Shown here piece after piece: positions 1,551 to 60,312 of a stretch of DNA of 64,000 nucleotides. How positions within the stretch are numbered: position 1 is the first letter of the stretch; each line of letters begins with the position of its first letter. A program made the translations under genes and the position numbers. Origin of the DNA: Eledone cirrhosa (lineage: Eukaryota); NCBI GenBank assembly GCA_964016885.1, contig OZ024741.1:79236001-79300000 (forward strand), read 5' to 3'. Under the pieces are notes generated by a model. That model ran no database searches. It was given only the letters and a program-made list of their open reading frames with translations, and was not told the origin of the DNA.

Positions 1551-2186
1551 TTCTTCTGGTTTTATAATTTCACAAAGTTTTACCAATGGAGGGTGAGTCG
1601 GTTTCTAACAAAGACACAAAACTCTCTAATTGGAAATTACACAACATCAACTAGGTATATATGTATGTATGCATGTGTAGATATGGATGTTATTGTATGT
1701 GTGGATGTGTATGTTTTGAGTTGTATGTGTGGATGTGTATATGCCTTGCATCTGTACATGTGTATATGCAGTTATTAGATGCAAAATTTTGGTAATGTTT
1801 TGCATATGTTTACTGTTCCATTAATGGATTGTTCTTGTAATTTCCTAACTAGTTGTGTTCCTGTGATTTGTATTGAGGCAGTTACTAACATACTCCAGTG
1901 CCCCAATAATCACAGGCATAAATCTGAAGGTGTTATCCTCGATGTTAGTTCTGCAGAGTCTGCACTTGTTATCACATCTAGGTGTTTTGCCTGCATCCCT
2001 ATCTCTTTTGTGAACCAAGTTCAGTAGTTCAGTCCTACTTTGGTCCAAGCGGGTTGGTATATAACCCGTAGCTCCAATAATGATGGGTATGAAGCTAAAG
2101 GTGTATCTTGGATACTGGATTTGTAAACTCCTCATCAATGGTCCGTAGATGTCCTCCTTCTCCTGTATTTTTCTGACAACGTTTAC

Positions 2187-2190
<4 letters not shown>
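1551..2190 (-). mobile_element. Truncated and internally deleted 3' ends of R4/Dong-like LINEs
   Basis: 1551-1920 resembles the 3' end at 2750-3150. 1930-2015 resembles 3545-3620 (RCDNKCRLC). 2030-2190 encodes EKEDIYGPLMRSLQIQYPRYTFSFIPIIIGATG. Bounded by (TATG)n on both sides. Confidence 0.8.
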
Positions 2191-2217
<27 letters not shown>

Positions 2218-2242
2218 TGTATGTATGTATGTATGTATGTAT

Positions 2243-2645
2243 GATGACCCCTTAGCCTTTGTCAAGGCAGAATTCTAGGAGAAGGAAAACTCTGATATAA
2301 CACCTGCAACCCTGATGGTATCCAATGATGTTGACTTGTTCTTCTTTTTGGTAAATATCATCTTGGTTAAGAGAGTGGGACTGGCTTTGTGCAGTGCCTT
2401 TGCTCACTATAAAAGCTTCACAGCACAGGCATTGCTTTATATCTGGAGATCTCTCTGCACTTGTCATCACATGGTACCATGGGCCCTGCACTATGTGTCA
2501 ATAATGGTCACAAGTGTAGTCTTTGTACCAGAGTTTTCAAGTTGCTGGCTGGACTAAAAAGTCACATTCGTTCAGCGCATCGGTAGGGGTTCTCCTACAT
2601 GGATATAAAGTAGTGGCCGTACTCGAAAACGAGTTGGCAGCCACC
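2243..2645 (+). mobile_element. Truncated copy of the non-coding repeat at 6968-7567, inside (TATG)n
   Basis: Near-identical to 7169-7567 and flanked by TATG arrays. Strand is inferred from which end is missing. Confidence 0.7.
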
Positions 2646-2749
2646 ATGTATGTATGTATGTATGTATGTATGTATGTATGTATGTATGTATGTATGTATG
2701 TATGTATGATTGTATGTATGTATGTATGTATGTATGTATGTATGTATGT

Positions 2750-5700
2750 TCTTCTGGTTTTATAATTTCACAAATGTTTACCAATAGAGTGAGAGCCGGT
2801 TTCTTACATAGATACAAGACTCTCTCATTGGAATTTACACAACATCAACTAGGTAGATATGTATGTATGCATGCATGTGTAGATATGGATGTTATTGTAT
2901 GTGTGGATGTGTATGTTTTGAGTTGTATGTGTGGATGTGGATGTTTTTAGTTATATGTGTGCATGTATATATGGAGTTATTAGATGCAACATTTTTGGAA
3001 TGTTTTACATATTTTTACTGTTCCGTTAGTGGATTGTACTTGTAATTTCCTAACTAGTTGTGTTCTTTCTGTTTCTGTGAATCCCAGCTTCTCAAGATTT
3101 GTATTGAGGCAGTTACTAACATACCCCAGTGCCCCAATAATCACAGGAATAAATCTGAATGTATAATCAGGGTGGAGTATCTGCAGATTTCTCATCAGTT
3201 CTGCATAAATATTCTCCTTTTCGCTAATCTTTGATAATATATTGGCATCTGCTGGGCAGCTAATTTCCACTACTGTGCATGCCTTCTTTTCCCTGTCCCA
3301 TCTCATTATATCTGGTCTGTTATGCCTGCATTTTATTGGTGTTTTTACTGGAACATTCCTCCAGTACTCTTTCATATTATGTATATGTATGTCTTCCACA
3401 TTGCTGTAGCTTTTAATGTGTTTATTATCGGGGCTATCTTTTCTAGGGATTGCATTGTACAGTGTTTTGGCCACTACATCATGCCTCATAGGTAGTTCCG
3501 TGTTGGCATCTTTGTACAGCTGCTTATGACATGGGTGACATCTTCGATGTTAATTCTGCATAGTCTGCATTTGTTATCACATCTAGGTGTTTTTCCTGCA
3601 TCCTTATCTCTTTTGTGAATCAGGTATTTCGTGTTGATTTTCTGTTATTGGATTGCAAAAGCGTATCCTTCAAATTGGGAGCCAATATGGCGGTTGTTGG
3701 TCCAAGATAGACTACTTTCATTATCTATATTACTCTCACTCTGGAGCTTCCCGGCAACATATCGATGCATGATTTTTTGTGGATAAGCATGCAGTTTTTC
3801 ATCCATGGATTCACTGCGATACTGCTCAGCGACTTCCCTGGGTGTGAGATTTTGATTATCACACAGGGTATATCTTTCGAGGAGCTTCTTCCCAACTCTC
3901 ATGATCTTATCTGTTGATGCAGATAGACTTACTCGAGAGAAGGGCTCCTACACTTCGAGGTTCGTAGATGTTGTCGGAGGGATATGATACGACATTCAAA
4001 TGCTGTATGGAGTGATGTTAGGCCTCTGCCTCCCGGCTTACGTTTCAAGTAAAGGCGGTCTATGTCACTGTTGATGTGGAAGTTTCCGGTGTTGTTTAGT
4101 ATTTTTCGAGTTCTAACATCAATAATTGCTCGGATTTCGTCTATTGTCCAATTGAGTATTCCAAACGTTGGTGTTAGGATAGGCACAGCAAACACATTCT
4201 TTTGTTGTGCACAGAGAGTTCCGATGAACATATTTTTTATTAATCGGGTGTAGTATTCCTTGATTACGCGTTCCTTATTACAGATACAATTATAGGATAT
4301 ATTCTCATCTATCCCCAGGTATCTGTAGCAGTCCTCATCAGATATCGGTGAAACAGATAGGCCATTGATGACAATGTTGCTAGATTGGGTTGTTGTTTTT
4401 CCCCGCTTTACAGTCATATATGAACATTTATCTTGGCCAAATTCCATTCCCTCATCCTTTGAGAATGTTGTAACCAGTTCAAGATTTTTCTTCATCCTAT
4501 CTATGTACTTGGCATAGCATTTCAGATCATCCACAACGAAATTATGGGTTAGGTTCGTATTTCTGTCCTGTGAGCCAATGATGTATCCTTCACATTTCTT
4601 GTTGCAGAAAGGACAAGGGGTTTAATGACAAGATAAATAATATCACAGAGAGACTGTCTCCTTGAAATATACCCCTGTGATATTCTATTTTATCAGTCAA
4701 AATAGAGTACTCCTTCTCTCTCTTTAGGATTGTAGCCCAAGAAGAAGACAGCTTCTCTATGGCTCTGAGTATAATGTCTGGGACTTTAGCAAGTCGGATG
4801 GCCTCTATCATCCAAGAGTGGGGTACAGAATCGAAAGCTTTCCTGTAGTCCAGCCAGACTGTAGCCGTATTCCTCGTAAGCTGTCGCAACTCCGACATCG
4901 CAGTTTTGTTGATTAGGAGTTGTTCAGCACATCCCCAAACCCCTTTCTTTCCAGCTGCTTGTTCATCTGTGATGATGTTATTATTTTCACAGCGATGAGT
5001 TCAAATCCCACCGAGGTTAACTTTGTCTTTCATCCTTACGGAGTCGATAAAATAAAGCACCAGTAATGTACTGGGGTCGATTTAATCGACTTCCCCGCCC
5101 CCAAATTACTGGCCTTGTGCCTATATATGAAATCATTATTTTCACAGCGATATTGGAGGAATAGGTTCAGGCTGGCTGTATACATCTTATACACCAGGTT
5201 CTGGCATGAAATGGGTCGGTAGCTTTTTGCCAAGTGGGTGTCTTTGTTCTTGGGGGCCAGTAATGTTTCTGCTAATGTTAAACATTCCGGTATAAGTGTA
5301 TCTCCCTTAAGAACTTGTTGGTAGAGGTTGGTAAGATACATCCGATAGAATATCAGTTCTTTGAACCACTAGCCGACAATCAAGTCTCTTGCTGGTGTTT
5401 TCTTATCTTGGAGTTTTCCTATCACAGTCTCAAGGGTACCCTCACTTATTTCGTATGTTTTTGTTGTAGTGTAGGAGAAATAGTTCTTTTAGATTTCTTT
5501 TAGTCAAACTGCATCTTGGATGAAATTCTTCTTTTCATCCATATTTTTCTCCTAAAGGAATCTATGTTTTTCTGGGATGGGGCCTCAGTGACACTTATTA
5601 TTTTGCCCTTCATACCTCTATAGACTGATGTTTGGTTTCGTCTGAATCTTTTATTAAGCACTTTTCTTTCATCTACGTTCTTCAGGTATCGGCGTTTTTT

Positions 5701-6890
5701 GCTGACAACTCTCAATTCTTGTTTGAGGGTGATCAGCTTATATTGGAGAGTTCTGGTTCTACTGTTACCAAACATCGTCTCTATTTTATTTTTTTATTTT
5801 CCACTCTTTGTTGGTGAGGAGTGAAGTTTTTTTGTGTTTGTTTGCATGTAAGGAGCATTGTCACATATCCTATGGTTTTTCGTAGGTCAGCACTGTTTTC
5901 TTCTATATATGATGGTATTTTTGGTGGTGTTTTGTTCTTGTTAATATCTCTGCTATCACCAAGATAATGCTTCACTGTCGTTGCTAAGTCATATAAACTG
6001 GCGTTGAATTGCCAACATTTTGGGGTTTTTATCCGTTGTAAATATTCATCCCCTATTTCGTCAATGACACGTAATATTTCATTATTTGTTTTGTTTTTTT
6101 TATTAAATATTGTTGTTTTAATACGTTCATCAAGAGAAATGTTTATACATGAATTAATTTCTCTCTGGAGGATTTCGTTGAGGGAAATTTTCAATTGTTT
6201 CTAGTTTTGATTATTATCATTATCGATAGTATTTTCCACAACAGTCGAGGTAGAATTAGATGGTACACGTGGTGTCAAATTTCTTACAGGCACTGTTCGA
6301 CCTGGCTACTAGGAAGTCTAGTAGCATGGCGGCCTGTAGTACGTGTTGTTGATTCCGTGTTTGTTGTGGGGGACTTACAATTAATAGTATTTATCTTATA
6401 TTTACGTTCAACAAACGCCGCCTGTTGGCGTAATTGTTTCGCTGTGAAGTAATTTAGCTATGGGTGTATTTCGTCCCAGTGTAGCTTCATTCTGTTCATA
6501 TAGCCAATGAAGGGATTGTTTTTTGCCATTTTACAACAATTAAATAAATCATCATTAAGTTCGCAACTCCAAGAGAAATGCGATTTATAATTTTGGTTTC
6601 TTCTGTAGCTACAACTGAATAAATTTTGTTTACCATCTCCGTTGTTTTTCTTCGGTACTTCCTTAATGTTGTTGATGCTGTTGTGTTCAGCCATGCTGTT
6701 TGTAGCAAATCCTTGTAAAATGAATTATGTATTTAGTCTGATATCTCTACGAATTCGAATAAAACGTGTCTTCAGTGGATATAGTTAGAAGAATTATCAG
6801 TTATTCAACATGACTGGTAGTTGTGGCATTACTGTAGCATTACTGTCTCCCACACCAAAATATGCGACTGATCGCGTTGACTGTATGTCG
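2750..6890 (-). mobile_element. Near full-length decayed R4/Dong-clade non-LTR retrotransposon (RT + CCHC + REL endonuclease)
   Basis: ORF pieces include YRPISCQNLVYK, WLDYRKAFDSVPHSW, GIFQGDSLS, VVDDLK, DIDRLYLKRKPGGRGL, CRLC...H...C, RHDVVAK and HNRPDI...VVEISCP; stop at 2980. (TATG)n lies at both ends. Confidence 0.9.
4997..5130 (+). mobile_element. 5'-truncated tRNA/Nin-domain SINE inserted in the R4/Dong element
   Basis: SINE core ccgaggttaactttgtctttcatccttacg..tcgataaaataaag. Direct repeat ttattttcacagcgat on both sides (target-site duplication, TSD). Confidence 0.85.
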
Positions 6891-12590: not shown

Positions 12591-13045
12591 CAATAAATAT
12601 ACATATATATATATATATTTGTGTGGGGGGGGGGGTTCAATCGGGGGTAACCACAGTAAGTAAGGTACTCAGTACATTAGTTAGAGTATATATAAGATCT
12701 AATATACAAATGGCTTCTACAGGACTAGAGCTGTTGTTTCATTCGAAGGAAAGCCATTTATATATATATACATATTATATATATATATATATAAACGCAA
12801 TAAATGAAACGAAATTTCATTTCTCACTCTTAGTACGGCTGTTACTTAAATATAAGTATATATACGTACATACATATATGTATACAGACGTACAGTAGTA
12901 TGTATATGCACACATATATATATGTACGTATGGATTCACCGAACATTTATTATAATGCTCGGTGTGTTTGTAAACAAACATCCCGAATTAAGCCGTACAG
13001 TGTCTAGCAACCGTCGTTGCTCATTTATTCAACACTGACAAAGGA

Positions 13046-23250: not shown

Positions 23251-24191
23251 CCTTACTTTAAAGGGCATTATACACTCTATAATACTTGTTTACTCATTAC
23301 CCTCATTCTATCTTCACCTTGTAAAATCATAACATATACATTTGTTGTTTTGATGTTAGAATATTCATCCGCAATCATTATTATTTTTTCTCTCTATCAT
23401 AAATCTTTTTAATCTCAATTTCATCCTTAATTTATTATTATTTTTTTCTCCCCATCAACGAACTCATTATTAATACATATTAACTCTTTATTCGCATATA
23501 TTATCAATTCCTTCAATATACAAACTTTAACTTCACATTATTTTTCTCAAATCCTTCTACACACAAACCTTAATAATTTTTCTCTTCGTTAATTTTGAAA
23601 TTGCCACAATACATACATTTCTTTTTTTGACGTTAGAATATTCATCCACAATTATTATTTTTTTCTCTCTATCTTCATACATAAATTCCCTTCGTTAATT
23701 TTCAAATTCCTTTAATTTATACATTATCTTCCAACGGTTCCCAACCTCTCTATGTTAAAACAATATATCGTTTTCTCAGTTATAAAAATTATCTCTTTCT
23801 CTCTATCACCCATCTCTCCCTCTCCACCTTCACTCTCATCTCCTCCCCCTCTTTTTCATCCTTTCCACCCCCCTCCCTAAATAAAATATTTTTTCCTCAC
23901 ACATATCCTCCCTTAGTTAATTTTCAAAATGTTTAATTTATACATTATCTTCCAACGGTTTTCAACCTCTATGTAAAACAATATATCTCCTCTCAGTTAT
24001 AAAAACTATCTCTTTCTCTCTATCACCCATCTCTCCCTCTCATCTCCTTCCCTTTTCATCCTTCCCCCCCCCCTCTCTAAATAAAATATTTTTCCCAATA
24101 TCACACATCAATCTAAAACCACTTTTCATATGTTGATTTAAAACTGCACTATCCACAAGTGTTTTTTTAGACTTCATATCATGTTCTCCTG

Positions 24192-24258
24192 TTTTATCTG
24201 ATGAAAACACAAATATTATTGCATGATGATGTTTGTTTTTGAAATGCGCATAATAAAA
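24192..24258 (+). ncRNA. Type I hammerhead ribozyme motif at the end of a PLE-type 3' region
   Basis: ttttat CTGATGA ...acaaatatta/tgatgtttgt... GAAA tgcgca TA ataaaa. Homologue at 61199-61267. Confidence 0.8.
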
Positions 24259-24381
24259 TACATGGAACTCCTTTAACCATCTTTTGATCTTATATTATGC
24301 ATACTCCAGTCCTACAAACTGTAGAGTGCTTCTTATCCGATATCTGCATTGCTTTATTGTACTACAATAAAACTCACCTCC

Positions 24382-25311: not shown

Positions 25312-27230
25312 TTAAAGAAAGAAGAATAACATGGTTGGCTGTACAATAACGGCTTTATTTAAAGTACTGACAGTTGTTTCGTAGATATTTTTAACGGAAA
25401 CGCAAACTATTATAACATAGCTTTACATAAGGCTGGACATAAGGAGAAGCTGCAATACATACTAGATAGAGACAACAACAACAAACCTAATGACATCAAC
25501 ACTACCCGCTCATACAGAAATAACAAGCATAGGACTAAGCATAGAATTGGACAACGAGCACCAAAAATAACCGAACAGAACACATATTAGGACCCCAAAA
25601 ACTATAGAAGATCCAAAGAAAGAAAGTACCTATGGTTTAATCCAATATTCAACTCCTCTATAAAAACTAAACTACCCTCTACATTCTTTAAACTAATAGA
25701 TAAGCACTTCCCTACACTACACAAATACCATAAAATCTTCAATAGAAAAACTATAAAACTTTCATACTCTACTGCAGCCAACATAGAATCGCACATACGT
25801 AATATCAACCACAAAAATATCTCTAAAGAAATTAACCTACCAACGCGCACCATAGCACCAAATACAAAACACAAACACATAACAACATCACAACCACAAA
25901 CGCATCAGAACGCATCACAACAAAACATTAACAGGCCTAAATCACAACCAACCCACAACAACTTACAAAACCGCAACGACGAACCTGCACAAAATAAAAC
26001 CTCAAATTGTAATTGCCACCTACCAGATAAGTGCCCACTACGGAATAGATGGCTGGATTCGAGTATGGTATACCTGTTTACTGTGAGTTCAGGTAACTCT
26101 ACCTGGCACTACATAGGTTCCACAGCTGGGGAGTTTAAGAAAAGGTGGTACGTCCACAGACACTCCATGAAGAACTGTGCACTGGAGAACTCTACAACGC
26201 TCGCCAATAAAATCTGGCAGCTTAAGGACAAAATCCTAGAATATAAGATTAGTTGGTCGAAATTATCGGTTACAAAAGCCTACAGCACCGGTATGTCCCA
26301 CTGCGGGCTTTGTAATTTAGAACTACTACATATTTTGAGGTACGATAGGATGCTGCTTAACAGCAAAATAGAAAGATCTATTTCTGTAGGCAGAAAATAG
26401 CTACTAGATTTACGAACTTCAAACCACCATGATTTGAACCAGCAATTCCAAAATTAGTACTGAACCACCTAGATTTTTAACATATAGAATACTCACCATC
26501 GCACCGCTATTAGCTATCAAACTGCCAACTGGTCACTGGATCATAAATCTCTATACACTTCTTCCACTCTTTCTCCATCAACTCCATTAAGATGGAACAA
26601 TCAGCAAAACATTTACAACAAGCGTTTATCAAACGTCCCGTCATCCCTACCCATAAATATGATACATGTATACATCAATTAATCTCTAATTTATTGTCTT
26701 TTCTTTTATCGGACCCTCTACACGTATTTATCTACATCTCAAATCTGGTTTCTCGTGTTAGCACCAACGAATCCTTATCAGAACACTTACTAAAAAAATA
26801 ATAATATCTACTTGCACTCTCTCACTTATTTATTTCTTCATATTTTCAATTTCCTCATTTTCTTATTATTTTTTAATGTACCCTATCTTATATTTTACTT
26901 TTTACTTGTTACATCTGTAACTTTTCTATCTATTAACCATACATGTTTTATTATTGATGTTATTGTTTTAATTATGCGCTATTTTATTGTTGATGTTATT
27001 GTTTTGGTTTTACGCTATTTTTTCTATATAAGTCTTGCCTCGAGTGAATTACTTTCATATCTACATACTCTGATGTGTTGACCAGTGGTAAACAATGTAT
27101 TGGAGATCGATTGACGCAACCTCAAGTGATTAGCAAACTCTAGACACACCTGATCAACGAAACAATTGTCAGTACTTTAAATAAAGCCCTTATTGTACAG
27201 CCAGCCATGTTACTCTTCTTTCTTTAACTA
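25310..27230 (+). mobile_element. 5'-truncated Penelope-like element (GIY-YIG) with inverted terminal repeat
   Basis: YLWFNPIFNSSIKTKL...LIDKHFP...KIFNRKTIKLSYS, CNC...CPL, YIGSTAGEFKKRWYVHRHS, CGLCNLE. 25310-25382 is the inverse of 27157-27228. Confidence 0.9.
27066..27174 (+). ncRNA. Hammerhead-like motif with long stem II and A9U change
   Basis: tact CTGATGT gttgaccag...ctgatcaac GAAA caattg TC agta. Confidence 0.65.
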
Positions 27231-30688: not shown

Positions 30689-30816
30689 AAAGTTTTATTT
30701 AAAATTGTTGGGTTACAACGAGTAAATATTTTATAACTGATATAAAAGCACTCAACAAGTTTTGGAGTATTTTACGATATTAAACAAATGGAAACTACAT
30801 TTATAAAACCATATTT

Positions 30817-30880
30817 ATTTCATTATATATATTTCAGGGATATCATATTAAAAATATGGTATGCCCTCTTCAGACAAAAT
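30817..30880 (-). ncRNA. Type I hammerhead motif
   Basis: Reverse complement of 32943-33006; same strand as the PLE ORF. Confidence 0.75.
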
Positions 30881-32942
30881 ACAATATATAAACAGTTTTA
30901 TAAATAAATTTGACATACCTTAAAACTTTACAACTTCCATTTAAAAAGTTGTTTTGGTAGTGAAAATGTTAAGGACAGTTAGAAAGAAAGACGAAGAGAG
31001 AAAAGAAAGAAAGTGTATAGTGCTAAGGACAGTTAGAGAGGAAGACGAAGAAAATGAAGAAATGTATGTAAAGAAAAAAACAACAGAGCGAGATAGAGAG
31101 AGAGAGATATGGGAGAGAGAAATATTGAGGAGGTGAAAAATGAATAACGTACAAATGAGAGATTTAGGAGGGAAGGGGGTACTGTAATTATTTATTTATT
31201 TATTTATTTATTTAGTTATAGTGTTAAGGATACGGAGAGAAATAAAAATAAAAATTAAAATAAATAAAGAGAGGTAGAAAGAGATATAGGTGGTGGGAGA
31301 AAAGAGGTAGATCGAGTAATATCTATTATACGAGGTGGGAGAGATAGGGGAGGGGTGAGATACAGGAGGTAGAGTTAAATCAGCCGATACATAAGTCCCG
31401 TCAAGGGAGGAGGAGAAGAGATATATTCAGAAATAAAGATGATAGATTTAAAATATTATGTTTCATCAGTCTATCAATTCATATGAATTAGGTATTATAA
31501 AGTAAATATCAATATTCATGAATGAGACACATATCAATAATGTGTGAAAAAATAATGACTATATGTTTAGTTTAAAAAATTCTTAGGTTTATAATCAAAA
31601 TCTGAGATAAAACTTCAAAAAATACTGGAATACATAAGTATATATGTATTTTCATGAAAAAAGAAAAAGAAAAAAGAGAAAGAAAAAGAGAAGGTTATCT
31701 CAAATTCAAGTTGACATTATAGACACACATGTGAGTTTACGTGATCAGCTCTGTAAATTTTTATTTCACATGAAAATCTTCATTGCGTTACAAAAGATTC
31801 TACCATACATATATGTACATACATATATATACATAAAATATACATTATTAATAATAATATTCTTGCCCTCCCTTACATGATTATCGTTCAAGCATAGAAT
31901 AGACGACAGATATCAATATATTAAAAACGCCAAGAATATCTCACTCCCCAGAGTATCTAGGGCCGTAAGAAAACACAGTGTGCCCCGCATATCAACCACA
32001 GAAATCAACCCTTCCAATTTATTTGACAATATATTGCCAAGTTCATTAGAAGCAATCAGAATCAAAAGCAAACAAAACCAAAATTATTCAACAAAACTTA
32101 TTTAGCAGAAATCATTCAAAAAAAAAAAAAAAAAAAAAATTAGGATACCCAGTTGTTCTACAGATGCTCTTATATTTATTATAGAAGCTTATCTAGCTTA
32201 AAAATTCATTCAATAGATTGGGAGCATCACCATTTTAAGGTAGTTTAATTACATCATTAATTATATACTCATGAAGAAGGTTTAAAAAATTGAAGGAATC
32301 GAAAGATTTATCGCCAAGTTTCATAAATAATTAAAAATCTTAGTAAATATACTACATTTTAAATTTATATTTATATTTAAAAGTTGAGTTCAATCTATGT
32401 CTGCAGCAACTGAATAAATTGGTCCGTAAATTAAGGGAATTTTTAGATTTTAGTATAAAGAATATCTCCTCCGCGCAGAGGTCACATGTCTCAGAAGAGG
32501 AATTAAAAGGAATCCCTCTTGAGACTATATTCCAAACCATCGAATATCCAACGTTATCATGTTTAAGTTGCCAGAGTAAGCCTGATAGTGATGTTGAAGA
32601 TTTTTTGTTTGGATCCGTGAAAGAATTCTTGTGATTATTATAGCGAAGTGATTATTATAGCGAAGTTTAAATTCTGTCGGGGTGGAACCAACATAATTAA
32701 AAGAATTTAAGTCAGTTTAAATTCTGTTGTTTTTTTCTATTGTTTTTTTCTTTACATACATTTCTTCATTTTCTTCGTCTTCCTCTCTAACTGTCCTTAG
32801 CACTATACACTTTCTTTCTTTTCTCTCTTCGTCTTTCTTTCTAACTGTCCTTAACATTTTCACTACCAAAACAACTTTTTAAATGGAAGTTGTAAAGTTT
32901 TAAGGTATGTCAAATTTATTTATAAAACTGTTTATATATTGT

Positions 32943-33006
32943 ATTTTGTCTGAAGAGGGCATACCATATTTTTAATATGATATCCCTGAAATATATATAA
33001 TGAAAT
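32943..33006 (+). ncRNA. Type I hammerhead motif (in inverted pLTR)
   Basis: attttgt CTGAAGA gggcataccatatt-ttt-aatatgatatccct GAAA tatata TA atgaaat. Confidence 0.75.
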
Positions 33007-33047
33007 AAATATGGTTTTATAAATGTAGTTTCCATTTGTTTAATATC

Positions 33048-43491: not shown

Positions 43492-43965
43492 GAATGCTAT
43501 GGTTGACGGATGCTCGGCTCTGTAAGGTATTGTCAATTTTGAACGCTATAACAATTGTAAATTGTTTAAAACTTTAACCAAATTGTATACAAAAACACCC
43601 TCCTCCTCGTGAGAGGGTTCTTTCTGCCCGTTATTTGGCCCTTCGGGGTTAAATAACCGCTTATTGGGGTTTTGTGCCCAATATTTATTTTAAACAAAAA
43701 AAAAAACATGGCTACGAAAAAGAATTTTCATAGGTCACTCCCACTCATTCCGTCTTCTTCTTCCTCAATCGTCACTACAGCAGAGAGAAGATTGTCTCTC
43801 TCCCTCCCTTCTCTAAATGTGTCTCTCTCCCTCCCTTCTCTTTCGCAAGCGACGCCAGAAAAAAAAATCACGTGCAAAGCGTGCAAAATTTCTCCACGAC
43901 GACGACGACAACGACGAAACAGGTGTGCTGGAAATACGAAAACCCATTTCATTCGTCTGACGTCA

Positions 43966-45509
43966 TGAATAATAGCAGTAGCAGCCGTAATAACAGCAGC
44001 AGCAGCAACAGTAAAAAGGAAAACAACAGTAGCAGCCGCAACAGCATCAGCAGCAGCATAAACAACAACAGCATTAGCAGCAACAGCAACAACAACAGCA
44101 GCAGCAGCAACAACAACAACAACAACAACCACAGCAACAGCGGCGGCGGCAGTAGTCGTAGTACCTGCAGCAACAACAAAAGTAACAGCAGCTCTGACGA
44201 CAACAACAACAACAACAGCAGCAGCAAAGAAAAACCAATCTCGTTTGCAGGTATCGCAAAGATCCTGGAAACCATCCTCATAACAAATGAGGAATTACAG
44301 GAAGCGAAGAAGATGGTGACGAAAACCGGACACCGAGCAATATGCAAGGCAGCCGAAAAATGTTTCGAAACCCAACAGCACTGTACGGTCACGTACCGAA
44401 CAGTAAGCACAAAATCCCGTAGGGTTGAAAGAGCCACAGAGGCTCAAATACAGAAAGCCTTAGGGTCTGTGTGGCAGCGGAAAACGCATATCACTCGAGG
44501 CAAGAAATATGCCACCGTAGACGTGCTTTTTGCCACACCCCAGGAGGCAAAGGCTCAATCCTTAGTGACCCTAAAGAGCGAGGAAATGGTGTTGGTGCCC
44601 TCCTACTGCGGGCAAAAATTTGTGAGGGTCAAACTGACCCACGTCCCCCCCGGCTGGCCACGTCTGTCCTCGTCGGAATCGAGGACAAAACAACTGTACT
44701 GCAAGTACAGAAAAAAAGTAAGAGAAGATTGGGTCGGCACCTCCATTGAGATGTTAATCCAAACCAACCAGGAGTGCATCGAAGCTATCCCGGATGTGAT
44801 AGACTTCGATAACGGCACTCAACTGCCCATAAGTGTTGAGGGCAAAAGCCCGAAATGCTTTCGCTGTGGATCGAAGACTCACCTCAGGGCCTTCTGCAAC
44901 AAGAAGACCCTGAGAAAGGAGAAACCCCCCCTCCTTCCGAAACCGGCTCCACGGCTACCAGCAACAGGACAAGTGGCAACCAGGAACGATAGGTCCGTGG
45001 CACCCATACCCAAGCCACGGAAATCAAGAACAGCAGCAGCAGTGGAAGTATTAACAACAACAACAGTAATACCAAATGCAGCTGCAACAGAGACTCCACT
45101 GCAAACATCACCAACAACAACAAGTGAAAGAGTGGAGCTGGTACCCCTCCCAGACCTCACAGAATCAGACATGGAGTGTGAGGTGGGAGACGGATGGCAA
45201 AAGGTCGTAAGAAGGCACAAACGCAGAAGCAGCGCATCGTCGCCTTCGAAAACGGAGAAAAGAAATGAAAAAAGGGTAAAGGCTACTGCAAAGAGACTCA
45301 CAGCAGCAAGACCACCAACATCATCACCACCCACACTAGCACCACCATCACCACCGGCGACAACCCCACCGCCAACAACAACAACACCTTCAACACCACC
45401 ACCACAAGCACCAACATCGCAAACAAAACAACAAAACACACACACCCAGCAACAACGACAAGAAAATAGCAGAACCACACCCCCCAGAAAAACAAATGCA
45501 CGGCAATAA
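43966..45509 (+). CDS. LINE ORF1: gag-like protein with CCHC zinc knuckle
   Basis: Open frame with KCFRCGSKTHLRAFC, a low-complexity N/S N-terminus and a P/T-rich basic C-terminus. First ATG at 43966. Confidence 0.8.
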
Positions 45510-45872
45510 ATACACACAACAAGAAACTAATGACTTACATAGTTGAACACACATACATTTCGCAGTACGACTACATAATACCAGCACCAATCAAAACGCC
45601 AACGAACATAAGACTGGTAAGAATATCACAGAAACAATACACAAACATTAAAACGAAATTCCCCAACGCAGTTGGTGATTTCAGAGACCTAGGAGGGACT
45701 CTCAACTGGAGAGTATATTCGGACATACTCATAGAAGAGCCGACGACCAGCCGAAGGGACGATTCAACGGTCCCTTCACCAGACGATCAAGTGAAAAGGG
45801 ATGGAAAAACATCCTTCCTCTACGAAAAGTACGGTAAGTGGTCTTTCCCATCTTTTCCACTCTATTTTAAAC

Positions 45873-48800
45873 ATGACCTCACTCAGAATAGGCAGCATAA
45901 ATGCGCGTGGCTTGGGGTCGTCATGGAAGCAGGGTCACCTGCTCAACGACCTCAGGTCACTAAACATAGATGTAGTGGCCATCAGCGAGACCAGAATCTC
46001 CGAAGCACGGGTCTTAGCACCGATCTTCGGCGGCTACGATGTGTACGCATCTCCCAGCCGTCCTGGATCGGGGGGAGGAGTTGCTGTGCTTTTTCGGAGA
46101 GGTTTGGATCTCGCCATACGGGCCATCTTCCTGGACCCAGAGGGTAAGTTGGTGGTGCTGGACGTGACCAGCGGAGACGGGCAAGCTTTCAGGCTAGTGG
46201 TCGTCTATGCCCCGACAGGAGCAGGGCAGCCTGATTTCTTCCGGCGTCTGGAGACCTTTCTTGGAACGTCCCGATCTTTAGAGTTAGTGGGCGACTGGAA
46301 CGGGATCTTAGATGCACGCTGGGACTGTGTGGGATTAGCGGATAGGGGTGGAGGGTGCAAGAGCCTCACCGACCTGCTCAGGCGTTTGAACTGTCTGACA
46401 GGTACCGATTGGATTTCCCGAATGTGCCAATGTGGACTTGGACAAATCGCATAAGGTCATCCAGATCATATCTAGATAGAGTATTTTGTAGGGAAATAGA
46501 TAGCTCTAGCATAGGCTGTCCACAATTCAAGATAGTCAGCTACACGGACCACAAATTCGTGATCTGTGTGCTTGACTTAGATAGGCTTTATAGACGAGGA
46601 CCCGGCTACTGGAAGCTAAACGCGTACTTACCAGCGCGCAAGGCCTACAGAGACCGGATTAGCGAACTAGTTAAGCGGGCGTTGACGGGGGCCATCGTCA
46701 ACAACAAGTGGTGGTTTGTTCTGAAAAGTGCGATTAGAATAGAATCCATTAGGTTTAGTAAGGCTTTAGCAATAGAGAAAAATAGAGCAGAGGGAGAACT
46801 TGTTAGAAAATTTGACGAGGCGCTTAGTAAAGGCATCGCGACCGACTTGCTTGCAGCGAAATTGGCCCTTGACCAATTCTTCAATGCAAAGCACGAAGGC
46901 TGCGTTGTCAGAGCTAGGGTGCGTGCTCTCAGACATGAGGGGACGAAAGCCGTTCAATGGGCCCGAGTGGCGGACGCGCGTTGTGGCAACAAAGTCACGA
47001 TCCGGTCTTTCGTGGACCACGACGGGCGCATGCTACTCGATCCCGGGAAAATGTGTGAAGCTTTTCAGCGACACTTCGCGCAGCTGTTCGGGGGCAGCGG
47101 TGCTCCGGGTCGAGGGATGGACTTTAGTGTCTACCTCGACGAACTGCCGCGGCTCTCGGCCACTGAGGCGGAGTGTTGCGAAAAGCCGATAACAGCCGCT
47201 GAAGTACGGGAGGCAATGACTGGCTGCACAAGAGGTAAATCGCCTGGTTTGGATGGTCTGCCCTATTAAGTTTACGTACAGATGCCAGACTTGTTCCGAG
47301 GCCTCTTGGCGGACGTCTACTGCAACTGGCAACAGAACGGGAGAATTCCCAGCTCTGTGAGCCGAGGGGCGGTGGCACTGCTGAGAAAGGATCCGAACAA
47401 GGGGGATAACATAGATAATTTCAGGCCCATAACTCTGCTAAACACAGAGTTCAAGATTTTGGCCAAGGTGCTAGCAAAGAGGTTGGCGCTTGTCGTTGGT
47501 GGTCTGGTGGGAGAGGCGCAGACATGCGCCATTCCCGACAGATCCATCCCTGACAACCTCCACCTCATGCGATACATCGTAGAGAGGGTAGCTAGGGAAC
47601 CTGGCACGGGTGGGTCCTTGATCAATTTAGATCAGTCAAAAGCTTTCGATAGGGTCGAGCATCGTTACCTAGCTGCAGTCCTGAGGGCGGCTGGATTTGG
47701 GCCCGTCTTCAGAGGCTGGATCGCTACCATGCACAGCGACATCTGCTCTGTGGTGAGAGTGAACGGTCACCTTTCGGAACCGTTCAACATCATGCGCTCG
47801 GATCGCCAAGGATGTCCCCTCTCGTCCCTCTTGTACGTATTGACTCTCGAGCCATTACTGCACAAACTGGAGACGTTGAGGGGCGTCCCGCGCGAACTAA
47901 GATACGGAAGATCCGTGTCAGCATGTGTGGACGATGTCACCGTAGTGGTGTCGAACGCCAAACACATCGAGGCGATCGGCACTACACTAAGAGAATACGA
48001 AGCGGTGACAGGAGCAATGATCAACCAGGAAAAGTCAGTGGGCCTGCAGCTCGGCACCTGGAGAGGCAGATCCATGCCGTCCAACAGCGTCGTCGGACGC
48101 TGGACGGACGGACCGGTTAAATTGCTAGGGGTCTGGTTCGGTCCGGACCTCCAGACGGACGAAAACTGGGACGAGATTACGAGCAGGGTATCTTCTCTCA
48201 CCCAGAAATGGGCGGAGAGGAAGCTATCCCTGAAAGGTCGAGCGGTGGTGGCTAACGCGTACATCGCGTCTGTCATCTGCTACCGCCTGACCGTCGTACC
48301 TTGTCCTAAGCCCCGCTTGACTGCGCTGGAGCGGTTGCTCTTTCGCTTTTTGTGGAAGGGACGCGCTCCGATGGTCAGGCGGTTCATCAGCTGTCAACAC
48401 CCGCTACGTGGAGGGCTGGGCATGCCCTGGATGATGATGCGCAGACACGCGCTCAGGCTACGACATTTCCACCTCTTCCTCGACGGTGATCAGGTGTGGT
48501 CGCCGTTTGCTAGACACGTATTTCCTCAGCTCGTTTCCTTGACGGAGCTGCAGTCCTGGGTCAAGCGAAGACCGAGAGGGAGCGCCTGGAGACTGAAATG
48601 TCTTCAGGCGCTCACAGCCCTCGACCAATCGGGCAATGTGATCGGTGGAAACTCCACCTCGGCGTTCTATAGAGGATTAGTGGAGGGGAAGTGCGACGAC
48701 GTATTTGGAGAAACTCTAGGCGTCGACGAAAATCAACTAGCCAATCTCTTCGGAAGGACTTTCGGGCCGGGACCTATGGACAACTTCCAGAAATCTCTGA

Positions 48801-49291
48801 CCTGGCAGTGCTACTGAGGAGCCTTGCCAGTTCGGGATAAACTCTACAGGCATGGAGGTGCCGTCAGCCGGGCATGTCCGAGATGCGCGCAGGGCGACGA
48901 AACCGTCCTGCACGCACTCGTCCAGGTTCCGAAAATTGCTGACTTGTGGGTTTATGTCGAACACCTGCTGTCGCGTGTAGGATGGATCCGACTATCAGCT
49001 GAGTCCATCGTGAGGATTACCCCGCCCCCTTCCTTTAGCCGGGAAGGGCAGGCAGTTTTTATCTGTCTGGTGGCCATGGCGAAAGAGATAGTATGGTGGA
49101 CACGTTTGAAAGGGCTGAAGACGAGCACTTACCTCTTCGGTGATGCCCTGATTGACTTTTTCATATTTCATTTGAAAAGGAAAATCAGAGTAGAGAGGGA
49201 AGTGCTCTCTTCCCAGCATTTTGTTGAAAGATGGGTGAGAGAAGCAAGTATGGCCCGAGTGAATGAGCCTACTCTGAGTATGTGTCTGTAA
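45873..49291 (+). pseudogene. LINE ORF2: APE endonuclease + reverse transcriptase + C-terminal Zn finger, disrupted
   Basis: SINARGL, VAISET, VYAP, GDWN, SYLDRVF, YTDHK, KSPGLDG, FRPITLLN, DQSKAFDRV, RQGCPLS, CVDD (in place of YADD) and CPRC...ETVLH. Frameshift near 46385; stops at 47267 and 48815. Confidence 0.93.
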
Positions 49292-53485: not shown

Positions 53486-53665
53486 AATTGTTTCTACTTT
53501 AGGCACAAGGCCAGCAATTACCCAGTGCATTACTGGTACTTTATTTTATCGACCCTGTAAGGATGAAAGGCAAAGTCAACCTCGGCGGGATTTGAACTCA
53601 GATCGTAAAGGGACGTAACTATGCTGGAAAGCATGGCGTCCGACCCTCTACCGATACACTGCCCT
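53486..53665 (-). mobile_element. tRNA/Nin SINE (short, young subfamily)
   Basis: Near-identical to 40780-40962. Confidence 0.9.
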
Positions 53666-54064: not shown

Positions 54065-54252
54065 GGCGGTAGATTGGCAGTATCGGTAGAGTTGTCGGAC
54101 GCCATGCTTTCCAGCATAGTTACGTCCCTTTACGATCTGAGTTCAAATCCCGCCGAGGTTGACTTTGCCTTTCATCCTTACGGGTCGATAAAATAAAGTA
54201 CCAGTAATGCACTGGGTAATTGCTGGCCTTGTGCCTAAAGTTGAAACAATTA
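54065..54252 (+). mobile_element. tRNA/Nin SINE, full length
   Basis: ggcggtagattggcag...gaaacaatt; tttaaaggattgt duplicated on both sides. Confidence 0.9.
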
Positions 54253-54308: not shown

Positions 54309-54339
<31 letters not shown>

Positions 54340-54776
54340 TTAATATAGAAAAGCTTCTCCAGGACTAGAACTGTTTCATTCGTGAGATATCATGAGGAAG
54401 CTGACTGTCCAAGTAAATATGGTGGTATTTATATCTTTTCTGGTAGTAGGAGAGGGTGGAGATTGGGATGGGTGATTGGTTGATGGGTTTAAAGAAAACG
54501 GAATTCTTTAAAAGCTAATTCTTTAAAGCTATAATTTATATTTAGAGTGACAAAGGCAGAAAGAATACTATAAACAAGTTCAGATTGGTGTACCACTCCC
54601 TATTTTTAAGTTTCTCCTAAGCTACACATACATATATAAAAAAAACACATATGTACACATATATACACATACATATATATATGTATATAAATATATACAC
54701 ATATATCTCTCCATATACATACATACATATACAAATATACAGGCATGCATGCATATATACACACATACATACATAA

Positions 54777-54858
<82 letters not shown>

Positions 54859-54946
54859 GTAGGTCTCGGGTTGAGTCGGGGATAACCACAGTAAGTAAGG
54901 TACTCAATACATGGCAGAGTAAATTTTTTTTTATTTTATAGAAGGA

Positions 54947-54995
54947 GCTTCTACAGGACTAGTACTGTTTCATTCAGATGAAATCTTCAGGAAGC
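54947..54995 (-). ncRNA. Type I hammerhead motif
   Basis: Reverse complement of 55002-55050. Confidence 0.85.
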
Positions 54996-55001
54996 ACGTG
55001 T

Positions 55002-55050
55002 GCTTCCTGAAGATTTCATCTGAATGAAACAGTACTAGTCCTGTAGAAGC
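55002..55050 (+). ncRNA. Type I hammerhead motif
   Basis: gcttc CTGAAGA t-ttc-atct-gaa-t GAAA cag-tactagtc-ctg TA gaagc. Confidence 0.85.
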
Positions 55051-55107
55051 TCCTTCTATAAAATAAAAAAAAATTTACTCTGCCATGTATTGAGTACCTT
55101 ACTTACA

Positions 55108-55156
55108 GCTTCCTGAAGATTTCATCTGAATGAAACAGTACTAGTCCTGTAGAAGC
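55108..55156 (+). ncRNA. Type I hammerhead motif (tandem copy, +106 nt)
   Basis: Identical to 55002-55050. Confidence 0.85.
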
Positions 55157-55288
55157 TCCTTCTATAAAATATATATATATATACATATATAAATATACAT
55201 ATACACACATACACACATATATGTATACATACATATACATACATATATATACACACACATATATATATATATACTCACACACACACAT

Positions 55289-55700
55289 ACCGAGATGATG
55301 GCCTTTTCGTCTTGCACAAGGTTAACCCCAGAACCACTGATGGGTTTCGGAGAAACTTAAGTTCGTTCTTCCGTAATCTACTATTTAGAATAACCATAGA
55401 ATCTAATATAATTAGGGCCAACGTTTTAGATGTCACTCTTGACTTAGATACATTCCTTCTACCCGTACCCCAAACCTAATGAGTCCCTCAGATATATAAA
55501 TGTTAATTCTAACCACCCCCAAAACATTTAAAAGCGTCTCACACAGAATCTCCGGCCTCTCGGTCAATGAAAATATCTTTGGCGCCTCTACCTCTTACTA
55601 CAACGACGCCCTCGCCCGCAGCCGATTCAAAGAAAAGATCACCTATCTAGAAACCACGCCAAGATTACCTAGGAGAAATAGGCATAGGCAGATTAGTTGG
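55289..55700 (+). mobile_element. Penelope-like RT fragment (YRDDGL type)
   Basis: YRDDGLF, NVLDVTLDL, YINVNSNHP, RISGLS...YYNDAL...RRNRHRQISWF. Confidence 0.85.
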
Positions 55701-58700
55701 TTCGCACCACGCCACCCACATCCACACCACATATAAACACAAACACACACGTGCGTACACACTCAACCTCCGGAATCCAGAACATGGAACCTCGTCCTTC
55801 TTCTCACATACACACACACACACTCACGTACATCTACACACATACACAAACACCACCTTCAGCTTTCCCCGCTTCGACACCCCGCCTCCCTCGCCCAACT
55901 CCACCCGCCACCATCCTTACACGCCTCACACTCTTCCACCACTTGCTCATCTTATTATTAATTCCTATGTTTATTTTTACGTTTACTTTTATTTTTATTT
56001 TTATTTGTTCTCCTTCCCCCTTTTTTCTAAATGTATTTCCACACACTCTCGGAACTCTCTTCCTAACTTATTTATCCTGAAGAAGGGCTTATACTCGACG
56101 CCCCCCCCCCCTCTCAAGACGGTGAACCTAATAAACCTTTATTTGTCTGCCTCTCTGTTTTGTTCCCGTCTAAATTTGCACTATACAATACACGCTTACA
56201 CGGCTTCCAAACCACCTTGGAATACCACCTTTACTACCGGCTCAACCCCGATTTAATCCGCCGAGACCATCCTCTGAACTTTCCCCATACTCCTCCACAA
56301 CCTTTTCTTTGCTTGTTATTTTTTCTATTTCCCCTTTTTTTCCTATTCTTTGCATTATTTATTGATTTATTTACTGTAATTTTTTTCTGCTTTTGAATTT
56401 TTTGTTTATGTTTTTTCCATGATATCCTGTGTTCATCTCTGATTACGATTTTTTTGTTTGTTTGTCCCTGCTTTCCTGTGCATACTTTCCCCTCACGATA
56501 TTTTTTTTGTTTTTTTCGTTTTTTTTGTTTTTTTCCCTCCCCCGTCTCTGTCTACCCTTTCGCCCTTACCCCTTCGTTCCACCTGCCCCCCGCATCACAC
56601 CCTTCCCTTCGCCTCCCCCCCCGCTTTACTCCACGCCCACCATGCCCAGCCTCAGATCCTTTCTCCACCAACTCCACACCCGCCTCAAACTTTTCCTCTC
56701 CCCCCTCCTCCCACCCTGCTATCTCCCTTCGGCCCTCCAACTCTCCTACCTTCTCTTCGCCAAAACCCGGCACTCCAGCCACATCCATTTCCTCAGCCGC
56801 TGCCTCCACCTCCACCTCATCCCCCTTGGCTTCCGACTACACTTCCACACCTCCCCCTCCGCTTCCACCTCCACCCAACGTATCCTCACCTGATCCTCGC
56901 GCCTCCTAATGCGCAACTCCATCCGCTCCTCCCTCTCCACCATCCTCAGCCTTGACCACAAACTCACCCCCACCCTCCTCCACCTTAACTCCGCATGCCA
57001 TCCCCTCCTCGCCCACTCCAACTTCATCTTCATCCAAAATCTCAACCACGACTACCTCTCCTTCCTCACCTCCACCAAAGCCCCTAAGCTACACTCACTC
57101 CTCCCCACCACCACCTTCCACCACCCCCGCCCATCTACGTGACCCCCACACACCCATCACACTCCTCCCCACCACCCTCCACCCCACACTCCCCCTCCCC
57201 CTCCCACACCCCTACCTCGTCTCACCCTTCCCCACCCACACCCCTACCTCGTCTCACCCTCCACCTCACCCCACTACACCCTCCATTCCCCTTCCCACCC
57301 CCTCACCGCACCCACCCCACCCACTTGTTGTCACCATATCCCCTGACCCCCCCTCTCCGCACCTGAGCGCTCACTCCTCAGTAGAGGCCTTCGCTTCATA
57401 CCACACACTCCGCACAGCGACGAGTTCCGCACCCGAACGGAGGTCGAACGATTCGTGCGACGCACGAAACTACAGGCACATTTCCATCTAACACCACCGA
57501 CTCCGAACGCCCCAGACCCGTTTCTCGCCCTGGGCCGACGAGCATTGTCTTGGACGCCGGCCCCAGGACAATTTAGCACCCTGCTCATGTTCGTTGATGC
57601 CTGCCGTAGCGCAGTAAATCGCTTCGACTTCCGCCACCGTTCCAAACGGAATAACATCTCACGGGGCGAACTCCTCGCTCTCCGCTCCCTCCGTAGCCAG
57701 GATGACATCGTCATCAAACCGGCGGACAAGGGAGGCGCTGTGGTGGTGTGGCGCGCTGACCTCTACACGGCTGAAGCCCTCAGGCAGCTCCGTAACCCCC
57801 TCTTCTACCGCCCTCTACCCTCTGACCCCACACCCCCCTATCAACAACAAGTTTCCTCCACCATCAAACACCTTGTCTCCTCCTCCCTTCACCCTCCCAC
57901 AGCTTCCCACCTCATCATCCGCACCCCCGCACCCCTACTATCTACTTCCTCCCCAAATTCCACAAACCTGACAACCCCGGCCGCCCCATCGTCTCTGCTT
58001 GCAACTGCCCCACCCAACTCATCTCCGCCTTTCTTGACTCCATCCTCGCCCCCTCGTCACCCCCTCCCCTCTCACATCTCCGACACCAACAACGCCCTTC
58101 GCCTGTTCGACTCCTTCACTTTCCCACCCGGCCCACATCCCCTCCTCTTTACCCTAGATATCCAGTCCCTCTAAACTGTCATCGCCCACGCCGACAGCCT
58201 ACGTGCCCTCCGGCACTACCTCGACCCTCGTCCACACCGCCCTCACTCGCGCTCGTGCTGTCCACCGACCACCGCCCTCACCCCACGCCACCGCACACCC
58301 ACCCATCGTCTCCCCTTCCCCATCACCTACCACCCTCCACCCTACCCCTCCACCGCACCATCCTCCGCCTCTTCCGACGCCTCCAGTCCGACCCCTCCAC
58401 TTCCTCCATCTTCCCATCCCCACCACTCCCCTCCTTCAAACGCGCATGCAATCTCCTCACCCTCCTCGTCCACAACTTCCTACCCCCCCAATCCACGCTC
58501 TTCTTCCCCCCTCGGTTCACTTCCCTGCTCCACGCCTCGTTGCCACACCTTTCCCCACATCACCAGCACCACCACCTTCCATGGTCCCAACGGCCACTCT
58601 CTCTCTGTCCGGCACGCCTTCCGCTGCACCTTCTCCAACCTAGTCTATGGACTTCGCTGCACGGAGTGTAGCGCAACCTACGTCGGACAGACTGGACGTC

Positions 58701-60312
58701 GCCTGGCGGACCGGTTTACCGAACACCTCCGGGATATTCGCCTCGACGGGAGTTCTCCGATCACCACTTCGCCCACCACCTCACAGTCTGTGGCCGACTC
58801 CAATGCATGGAACACCCGCCACCCGCCTCACGGTCGAACAACGCACCTTCTTCATCCTCCAGACCCACACATCACCCGGCCTGAACTCCCCACTCCTATT
58901 CCTTTAGCCTTCGACCGCCCACCCTTCCCCCCGAATTCCCCACTAACACCTCTAACACACTTCCTCTTTTCAGCGCCCCACCCCCTTTTCCCACCCCCAA
59001 CTAACAATACTAACATCCCCACCCTCCCCCTAACCGCACACACCCAGCACTCACACTACCTACACACCCTACTACCACCACTAACCCTCACCCACACATC
59101 CACTCCGACCACCCCACAACTAACATCACTAACCCCCCCTACCCCACGCACACGAACACACACCATCACACACACACACACACATAGACACACCTATGTA
59201 CACCACCCACTTCACACTCCCAACCACCACTAACGCCCACTTACACACCCACTTTCCACCCTTTCTCCACCACACGGAATACTAGCACCCACTAACACCC
59301 CCTTTACCAAACACACACTCATCCAAACACACACACACACCAGTACACCACACTCCCTCCTCCGACCGCAACACCTCTTCTCTCCCGCTCTCTCTCCCTC
59401 GCTCTCTCTTCCTCTCCCCACACACATCCCACTAACACCTCTACTAATATACACCCCGTCTCCCCACTTTACCACCCTCCCCCTCCACCCTTCACACAGA
59501 CCCATCCTCTCCCCTGTCCACCGCACCTCCGCACACACAGACACACACACAGTCCACACCACACTGACCTTACTCCACCTGTCATCCAGCTCTGCTGCTA
59601 TCTCCTCCTCCTCTACTTCTATCTCTTCACCTTGCCTTGACCCTCTGACCACTTCCTGTTGCGCGCTCACCCCACTTCCCTCCGCTTCCGACCACCACCA
59701 ACATTGGATTCCACACCACCGACACTTTTCCAGCCATCCACTCCATACCATGGCAAATATCCAGCACTCTTCTCACACTCGATGGAACAACCTCAGGAAC
59801 TTACCCACGGACATACACTCACATTTTTTTTCGCACCACGCCACCCACATCCACACCACATATAAACACATACACACACGTGCGTACACACTCAACCTCC
59901 GGAATCCAGAACATGGAACCTCGTCCTTCTTCTTACATACACACACACACTCACGTACATCTACACACATACACAAAGACCATCTTCAGCCTTCCCCGCT
60001 TCGACCCCCCGCCTCCCTCGCCCAACTCCACCCGCCACCACCCTTACACGCCTCACACTCTTCCACCACTTGCTCATCTTATTGTTAATTCCTGTTTATT
60101 TTTACGTTTATTTTTATTTTTATTTGTTCTCCTTCCCCCTTTTTTCTAAATGTACTTCCACACACCCTCAGAACTCTCTTTCTAACCTATTTATCCTGAA
60201 GAAGGGCTTATGCCCGAAACGCCCCCCCCCCCCCCCTCACTCTCAAGAGCGTGAACCTAATAAACCTTTATTTGTCTGCCTCTCTGTTTTGTTCCCGTCT
60301 AAATTCGCACTA
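55700..60312 (+). mobile_element. Neptune-like Penelope element with direct pLTRs (55700-56182, 59830-60312); ORF frameshifted and RT core deleted
   Basis: LLSRGLRFIP, IVIKPADKGGAVVVW, YFLPKFHKPDNPGRPIVSAC and LFTLDIQSL, then a jump to GIY-YIG LVYGLRCTECSATYVGQTGRRLADRFTEH. Degenerate hammerheads at ~56077 and ~60196. Confidence 0.88.

What the first reader, a model, noticed from the sequence alone, without database searches (positions are those of the whole stretch)
54860..55170. Triple-hammerhead cassette: perfect palindrome plus 106-nt tandem unit
Seen: three identical hammerheads, one minus and two plus. Predicted cuts after 55045 and 55151 would release a 106-nt RNA. Decayed relatives at 54346-54405 and 12630-12755 show a dispersed family. 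Inference: a very recent insertion of a very small self-processing unit. The tandem arrangement would also allow dimeric hammerheads through the actagt loop palindrome.
Basis: partly seen in the sequence, partly recalled or inferred. Interest (0 to 1): 0.75.

Follow-up and report, generated by a model that had tools for sequence, protein, structure and literature searches.

The report
Penelope retrotransposon stub with template jump
The three hammerhead motifs are three short copies of the front end of a young, abundant Penelope-like jumping gene, inserted back to back in a TA repeat; the 106-base repeat is likely a by-product of the copying enzyme jumping between RNA templates, not a self-propagating mini-RNA.

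Summary
In detail: three identical type I hammerhead motifs, a perfect 107-bp palindrome and a 106-nt period. The cassette is not an independent element. Its 138-nt unit is the 5' end of a ~4.25-kb Hydra-clade Penelope-like element (telomerase-like RT plus GIY-YIG nuclease), with 1,923 exact hammerhead cores in this genome. Head-to-head pairs in (TA)n, with one long-tailed and one short arm, are the family's normal insertion form (38 of 39 short pairs sampled), so an artefact is unlikely. The tandem junction recurs at 9 loci, always at the tail boundary, but with different linkers, periods of 105-112 nt and never more than two direct units; this fits repeated template jumps, not a replicating circle. 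Almost all copies run through the predicted cut site, and no promoter lies upstream here, so release of a 106-nt RNA is unsupported. The direct-plus-inverted layout with a tail is published. The scan already found head-to-head stubs and cap run-off on other DNA; the fixed-site jump is what this locus adds.

The parts
54784..54857 (.). (TA)n target, left flank
   Evidence: sequence; (TA)n flanks nearly all family ends
54858..54890 (-). 33-nt 'tail', unit positions 107-139, ending at the major 3' end (site A, ...CCTACG)
   Evidence: unpaired part outside the palindrome; 47 of 97 sampled cores end at this site; in full-length copies the sequence continues into the 5' UTR and ORF
54891..54995 (-). 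Arm A, unit positions 2-106 of the element's 5' end, with hammerhead motif 54995-54947
   Evidence: 134 and 135 of about 138 positions match the 5' ends of full-length copies L105 and L106 (alignment)
54996..55001 (.). Head-to-head joint ACGTGT, not present in the element (untemplated bases, inferred)
   Evidence: junction parse, row L001
55002..55106 (+). Middle segment, unit positions 2-106 with hammerhead motif 55002-55050; ends at site C, the tail boundary
   Evidence: site C is the donor side of all 9 tandem junctions and a minor end against (TA)n
55107..55170 (+). Arm B, unit positions 1-64 with hammerhead motif 55107-55157; ends at the short 3' end (site B, TTCTATAAAA) in (TA)n
   Evidence: 48 of 97 sampled cores scored as ending at site B
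55171..55286 (.). TA/CA microsatellite, right flank
   Evidence: sequence
54337..54403 (-). Decayed short arm of an older sister subfamily (core mutated to CTCATGA)
   Evidence: 80-82% identity
12633..12752 (-). Decayed tail-bearing arm of an older sister subfamily, core lost
   Evidence: 75% identity, shares the site C motif

Best explanation
The cassette is one ORF-less insertion made of three short copies of the 5' end of a Hydra-clade Penelope-like element, likely produced by two reverse transcripts primed on opposite strands of a nicked (TA)n target, one of which likely jumped templates once. Shown: the unit is the element's 5' end; family arms end at three fixed sites (B about 56-75, C 106-107, A 139); most arms start at position 1-3; A and B arms pair head to head. 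Inferred: (1) the element's capped RNA starts at AGCTTC, 29 nt below a TATA-like box supplied by the preceding unit; (2) the GIY-YIG nuclease nicks both strands of (TA)n; (3) RT starts internally at site A on one strand and site B on the other and runs off the cap; (4) here the B-primed cDNA re-engaged at site C and copied positions 106 to 2 again, giving the 106-nt period; (5) the two cDNA ends were joined head to head. The hammerheads are passengers, copied from mostly uncut RNA.
For: Full-length copies L105 and L106 show unit, 5' UTR, ORF, 3' UTR, unit, period 4251 and 4266 bp. A 711-aa part of the ORF models at pLDDT 93.6, with telomerase RT as top match (Z 14.2) and I-TevI GIY-YIG on residues 573-678 (Z 9.6, rmsd 2.5, 89 aligned); Hydra motifs present. 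1,923 exact cores. 38 of 39 short pairs are A+B; A reaches further 5' in 19, B in 14, equal in 5. In long insertions B can exceed A by 0.6-2.2 kb (L113, L126, L132, L145) or the reverse (L107, L143, L146, L148), which simple fold-back of one cDNA cannot give. Extra G before AGCTTC in 46 of 64 non-palindromic starts, versus 16 A and 2 T. TATAAA at -29. All 9 tandem junctions in positions 102-130 use site C with linkers from none to GGGGG; none at 132-158, none elsewhere in 82-112, one at the cut site. Two-site internal initiation, nicking and extension of both strands and use of uncut RNA are reported in vitro for the PAc element (PMC11167929).
Against: The mechanism is read from genomic junctions only; no RNA start, cap or RT product was observed. 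Some extra Gs can come from 1-2-nt microhomology with the opposite arm, and C was excluded by the pattern. Both window arms carry the same non-element GT, which a fold-back would also explain. Shared rare variants in both arms of 3 of 72 pairs fit one source element but also fold-back. Junction counts are lower bounds (exact anchors), positions about 76-81 were not searched, and 9 events is a small set. Public reads could not confirm this locus. PMC3846280 interprets such palindromes as self-priming on an antisense template.
Confidence: 0.75

Rival explanations
1. A minimal non-LTR retrozyme: the two plus-strand hammerheads cut out a 106-nt RNA that circularises and is re-inserted by rolling-circle reverse transcription.
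For: Two intact direct hammerheads 106 nt apart; dimer-like minimum-energy fold of 55000-55170; the same exact junction at a second locus, L073; a preprint links animal retrozymes to PLE pseudo-LTRs (10.64898/2026.07.22.740005).
Against: [quoted passage not shown]
Confidence: 0.08
2. Same retroelement origin, but the palindrome arises by fold-back (self-priming) of a single cDNA or antisense template rather than by two primed cDNAs.
For: Perfect arms with the same added GT here; recurrent hairpin-compatible joints such as GGAAGCTC-CTGAAG; proposed in PMC3846280.
Against: B arms often reach further 5' than A arms, by up to 2.2 kb; B ends show TAAAA stutter typical of a priming site; extra G at starts points to a sense, capped template.
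Confidence: 0.12
3. Assembly or library artefact (fold-back chimeric read).
For: Arms are 100% identical; no public read or contig spans the locus.
Against: The mirror stops exactly at element site C and includes no flank; 6 other loci share the three-part layout with their own linkers; arms differ in 31 of 72 other pairs.
Confidence: 0.05

Closest known systems
Hydra-clade EN+ Penelope-like elements (Craig et al. 2021, PMC8557442; passages, section 11, supplement passages)
   Same: Single ORF, RT then C-terminal GIY-YIG; RW(R/K), DKT, CxCX5C, CxxC, CxH motifs; hammerhead; (TA)n targets; partial tandems with adjacent inverted copy and 30-40-bp tail.
   Different: Not Hydra-1_Obim (different protein and hammerhead, compared by eye); unit 4.25 kb, above the usual <3 kb, owing to a microsatellite-rich 3' UTR; this insertion has no ORF.
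Pen2a_Av layout in Adineta vaga (PMC3846280; passages)
   Same: Two direct pseudo-LTRs, one adjacent inverted pseudo-LTR and a 31-bp tail.
   Different: There an ORF lies between the direct repeats; here they abut, joined at the tail boundary.
Poseidon PAc of Anolis (Frangieh et al. 2024, PMC11167929; first two of four parts read)
   Same: Internal RT starts downstream of the hammerhead define the tail; AT-rich target; uncut RNA is the main template.
   Different: Here three end sites, with a strict long/short pairing between arms; template jumping was not described in the parts read.
Metazoan non-LTR retrozymes (PMC7229834, passages; 10.64898/2026.07.22.740005, first of five parts)
   Same: Short direct repeat with a type I hammerhead in each unit; U.U at the base of helix II as in the weak axolotl HHR_Amex2.
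   Different: 106 nt versus about 170-400 nt; 1.6 units, no multimers; variable junctions; sequence is a contiguous piece of an autonomous element.

Membership tests
EN+ Penelope-like element | Telomerase-like RT in the parent element | tested here: met
   YRDD at 335; top matches TERT 3du5 and 6zdp Z 14.2, tied with other RTs
EN+ Penelope-like element | C-terminal GIY-YIG endonuclease | tested here: met
   I-TevI 1ln0 Z 9.6 on 573-678; weak Pfam GIY-YIG in 2 of 11 homologues, none in the query itself
EN+ Penelope-like element | Partial tandem forming pseudo-LTRs with hammerhead | tested here: met
   L105, L106
EN+ Penelope-like element | Adjacent inverted copy and one-sided 30-40-bp tail | tested here: met
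   33-nt tail; 38 of 39 pairs
Hydra clade | RWK-like, DKT, CxCX5C, CxxC and CxH motifs; (TA)n target | tested here: met
   RWR 26, DKT 104, CNCPDKTTC 556, CDLC 656, CMH 684 against the definition
Hydra clade | Placement in the clade by RT phylogeny | not tested
   no tree built; resemblance to the paper's alignment rows seen by eye
Type I hammerhead ribozyme | CUGANGA/GAAA/UH core with three helices | tested here: met
   helix I covaries in a sister subfamily (AGATTC/GAATCT) while loop II varies
Type I hammerhead ribozyme | G10.1-C11.1 pair and Rfam match | tested here: not met
   U.U at helix II base; no Rfam hammerhead hit
Type I hammerhead ribozyme | Self-cleavage | not testable with these tools
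   genomic footprint inconclusive: 21 loci start at cut+1, 11 explained by helix I microhomology, versus 6 at a control position
Non-LTR retrozyme | Tandem arrays of a constant unit, dimers to multimers | tested here: not met
   periods 105-112, at most two direct units, 9 loci; no TRF array
Non-LTR retrozyme | Two consecutive complete hammerheads | tested here: met
   window, L067 and L070: 3 of 9 loci
Non-LTR retrozyme | Abundant linear and circular monomer RNA | not testable with these tools
   only contigs and RAD-seq DNA reads were available

The most novel reading that the evidence does not exclude
Penelope-like RT performs a site-specific strand transfer: after running off the cap it re-engages at the tail boundary, so it manufactures ORF-less tandem hammerhead units de novo. 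These nine loci would be retrozymes caught at birth, and the 106-nt dimer would be the smallest such unit, able to cut through the ACUAGU dimer fold.
Probability: 0.22. Interest if true: 0.65.

Novelty: new member of a known kind. Interest (0 to 1): 0.36.

Why it matters
How Penelope-like elements make their tandem and inverted insertions is stated as open in PMC8557442 and PMC11167929. This young family gives a readable record: a sense, likely capped template, three fixed start sites, two independent arms, and a recurrent jump to the tail boundary. These are direct predictions for an in vitro assay and suggest a route from pseudo-LTRs to retrozyme-like repeats. The locus itself is an ordinary transposon remnant.

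Tried and rejected
Rfam: no hammerhead; only generic hairpin hits below gathering score. Pfam found nothing for the ORF itself; PDB sequence search nothing useful. Single-sequence model of the nuclease domain failed, pLDDT 36, and was not used. Public runs: contigs and RAD-seq reads pile up from the whole family and none spans the locus; runs guessed to be RNA from other organisms hold related pieces but cannot show ends or strand. Cleavage footprint: excess of arms starting at cut+1 (23 of 28 matches) shrinks to 10 loci versus 6 at the control once microhomology cases and one duplicated locus are removed; not claimed. Splicing as the cause of the tandem junction was considered (site C is the complement of a GTAAGT donor) and rejected because linkers vary and the GTAAGT side is kept. 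The tail-variant count returned nothing because of a pattern slip. Literature searches for twin priming, template switch with cap and head-to-head, template jump and octopus hammerheads listed no paper describing a fixed-site jump; subscription papers and bioRxiv supplements were not searchable.

Full report
Observation. A descriptor scan finds three identical type I hammerhead motifs at 54995-54947 (-), 55002-55050 (+) and 55107-55157 (+), with predicted cuts after 55045 and 55151. The arms 54891-54997 and 55000-55106 are fully complementary. The motif has helix I of 5-6 bp, a 3-bp helix II with U.U at its base, a 4-bp helix III with an 8-nt loop holding ACUAGU, and a GUA triplet. Rfam does not detect it, but helix I covaries in a sister subfamily. 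I number the unit from the A of AGCTTC (55107 = 1).

The family. The 138-nt minus-strand arm has at least 40 copies at about 98-99% identity (40 of 504 candidates scored) and the 44-nt core occurs exactly 1,923 times in the 3.0-Gb genome. Copies that extend upstream lead through a microsatellite-rich 3' UTR into an ORF. L105 and L106 show the whole order: unit, 5' UTR, ATG at position 184, ORF, 3' UTR, unit again, then (TA)n; period 4251 and 4266 bp. The window arm differs from their 5' ends at 4 and 3 places. An open 754-codon frame in L107 has 412 homologues; 711 aa of it modelled with 118 of them reach pLDDT 93.6, match telomerase RT first and I-TevI GIY-YIG at residues 573-678. It carries the motifs that Craig et al. 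list for the Hydra clade; no tree was built. The host is probably an octopus, from a recalled SINE and earlier scan notes; I did not test this.

The palindrome is the normal insertion form. I examined 97 of the first 100 listed cores on contig C1 (the last three were left out). 47 end at the tail end CCTACG (site A, 139), 2 at a mutated tail, 48 were scored at TTC(TATAAAA) (site B), almost always into (TA)n. 35 run on exactly into the 3' UTR (about 40 counting mutated flanks); the others start at or within a few bases of position 1. Of 48 short head-to-head rows I dropped 9 (sister subfamilies or spurious pairings); of 39, 38 are A+B and 37 have an arm starting at position 0-3; A reaches further 5' in 19, B in 14, equal in 5. 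In long insertions either arm can be the longer by kilobases. Arms differ in 31 of 72 pairs and share a rare variant in 3. A library fold-back would mirror flank and give identical arms, so an artefact is unlikely, though public reads cannot test this locus.

RNA start. TATAAA lies at -29 in the preceding unit. Among the first 100 of 765 non-native starts, 36 are AGCT overlaps of two arms; the other 64 have G 46, A 16, T 2. An added G is what RT copying a cap is known to leave (my knowledge); some Gs may be microhomology. These arms run through the cut site, so their template was uncut. Arms starting at cut+1 are rare: 23 of 28 matches, 21 loci, 11 explained by helix I microhomology, against 6 of 30 at a control position; this is inconclusive for cleavage. 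PMC11167929 (two of four parts read) reports the same preference for unprocessed RNA, two internal starts defining the tail, and action on both target strands.

The 106-nt repeat. The exact junction occurs twice. Allowing a linker gives 9 loci, all with the donor at position 106-107 and linkers from none to GGGGG. No junction was found from 132-158, none other than site C from 82-112, and one from 45-75, at the cut site; 76-81 was not searched and exact anchors make all counts lower bounds. Seven of 9 have the window's layout (tailed inverted arm, middle piece ending at C, short arm). Periods are 105-112 nt in the 8 loci with two cut sites, 3 of 9 keep two intact direct motifs, 2 of 9 have three full motifs with intact direct cores, and none has more than two direct units. 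Site C is also a minor end against AT-rich DNA (15 matches, about ten true ends, mostly sister subfamilies), and A minus C is the 33-nt tail. Independent jumps from the cap end to site C explain all this; a replicating circle would give one junction and multimers.

Would a 106-nt RNA be released? Neither plus-strand copy has the TATA-like box at -29. Metazoan PLE hammerheads cut poorly in vitro even as dimers (PMC4209133, two of four parts read). Release is possible but unsupported.

Comparison and novelty. Partial tandem, adjacent inverted copy and 30-40-bp tail are the published PLE layout (PMC8557442 passages; PMC3846280 passages); opposed hammerheads 100-700 bp apart were noted in PMC4209133. 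It works like, and by motifs belongs to, Hydra-clade PLEs; it fails the array test for retrozymes (PMC7229834 passages). Earlier scan notes already describe head-to-head stubs, the long/short rule and cap run-off on other DNA; my reading was noted, before those look-ups. The addition here is the recurrent fixed-site jump, which my searches did not find in print, and which could bear on the proposed PLE origin of retrozymes (preprint, first of five parts; its supplements were not seen). Verdict: real, a new member of a known kind, interest 0.36.

Noticed in passing
L182-L184 (G000:C24:27247700-27248150): About six short copies of the 17-nt stretch ending at site C alternate with (TA)n next to a sister-subfamily arm: looks like repeated, telomerase-like short extensions from site C.
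   Followed up: no
L185 (G000:C21:17716901): A tandem junction whose donor side is exactly the predicted hammerhead cut site, followed by G and the unit start (46-nt period); one case only.
   Followed up: partly
L194, L206-L208, L209: Head-to-head pairs in which both arms start at or next to the predicted cut site; possible copies of cleaved RNA.
   Followed up: partly
window 54891-54903 (+) / 55094-55106: Site C lies at the edge of GTAAGTAAGGTAC on the antisense strand, a splice-donor-like motif conserved across sister subfamilies; the likeness to U1 is recalled.
   Followed up: no
window 24190-24260, 30816-30881, 32942-33007: Other AU-rich type I hammerhead motifs with palindromic helix III; the last two are identical and head to head 2 kb apart.
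   Followed up: no
window 25591-26400, 55290-55690, 57347-59233: Remnants of other Penelope-like families (nuclease-like ORF; a CTGATGG-core hammerhead-like motif near 55337-55372; an RT fragment with DKG) seen by eye; no Pfam hits.
   Followed up: partly
window 53554-53644 and 54094-54184: Two 99%-complementary inverted copies of a SINE-like repeat, 449 nt apart; recalled as an octopus SINE, not tested.
   Followed up: no
window 43734-49291 and 1845-6200: Broken LINE-like ORFs.
   Followed up: no
L105, minus strand, just after the 3' tail: A 389-aa ORF piece of a different Hydra-like family sits in the (TA)n right after the element.
   Followed up: no
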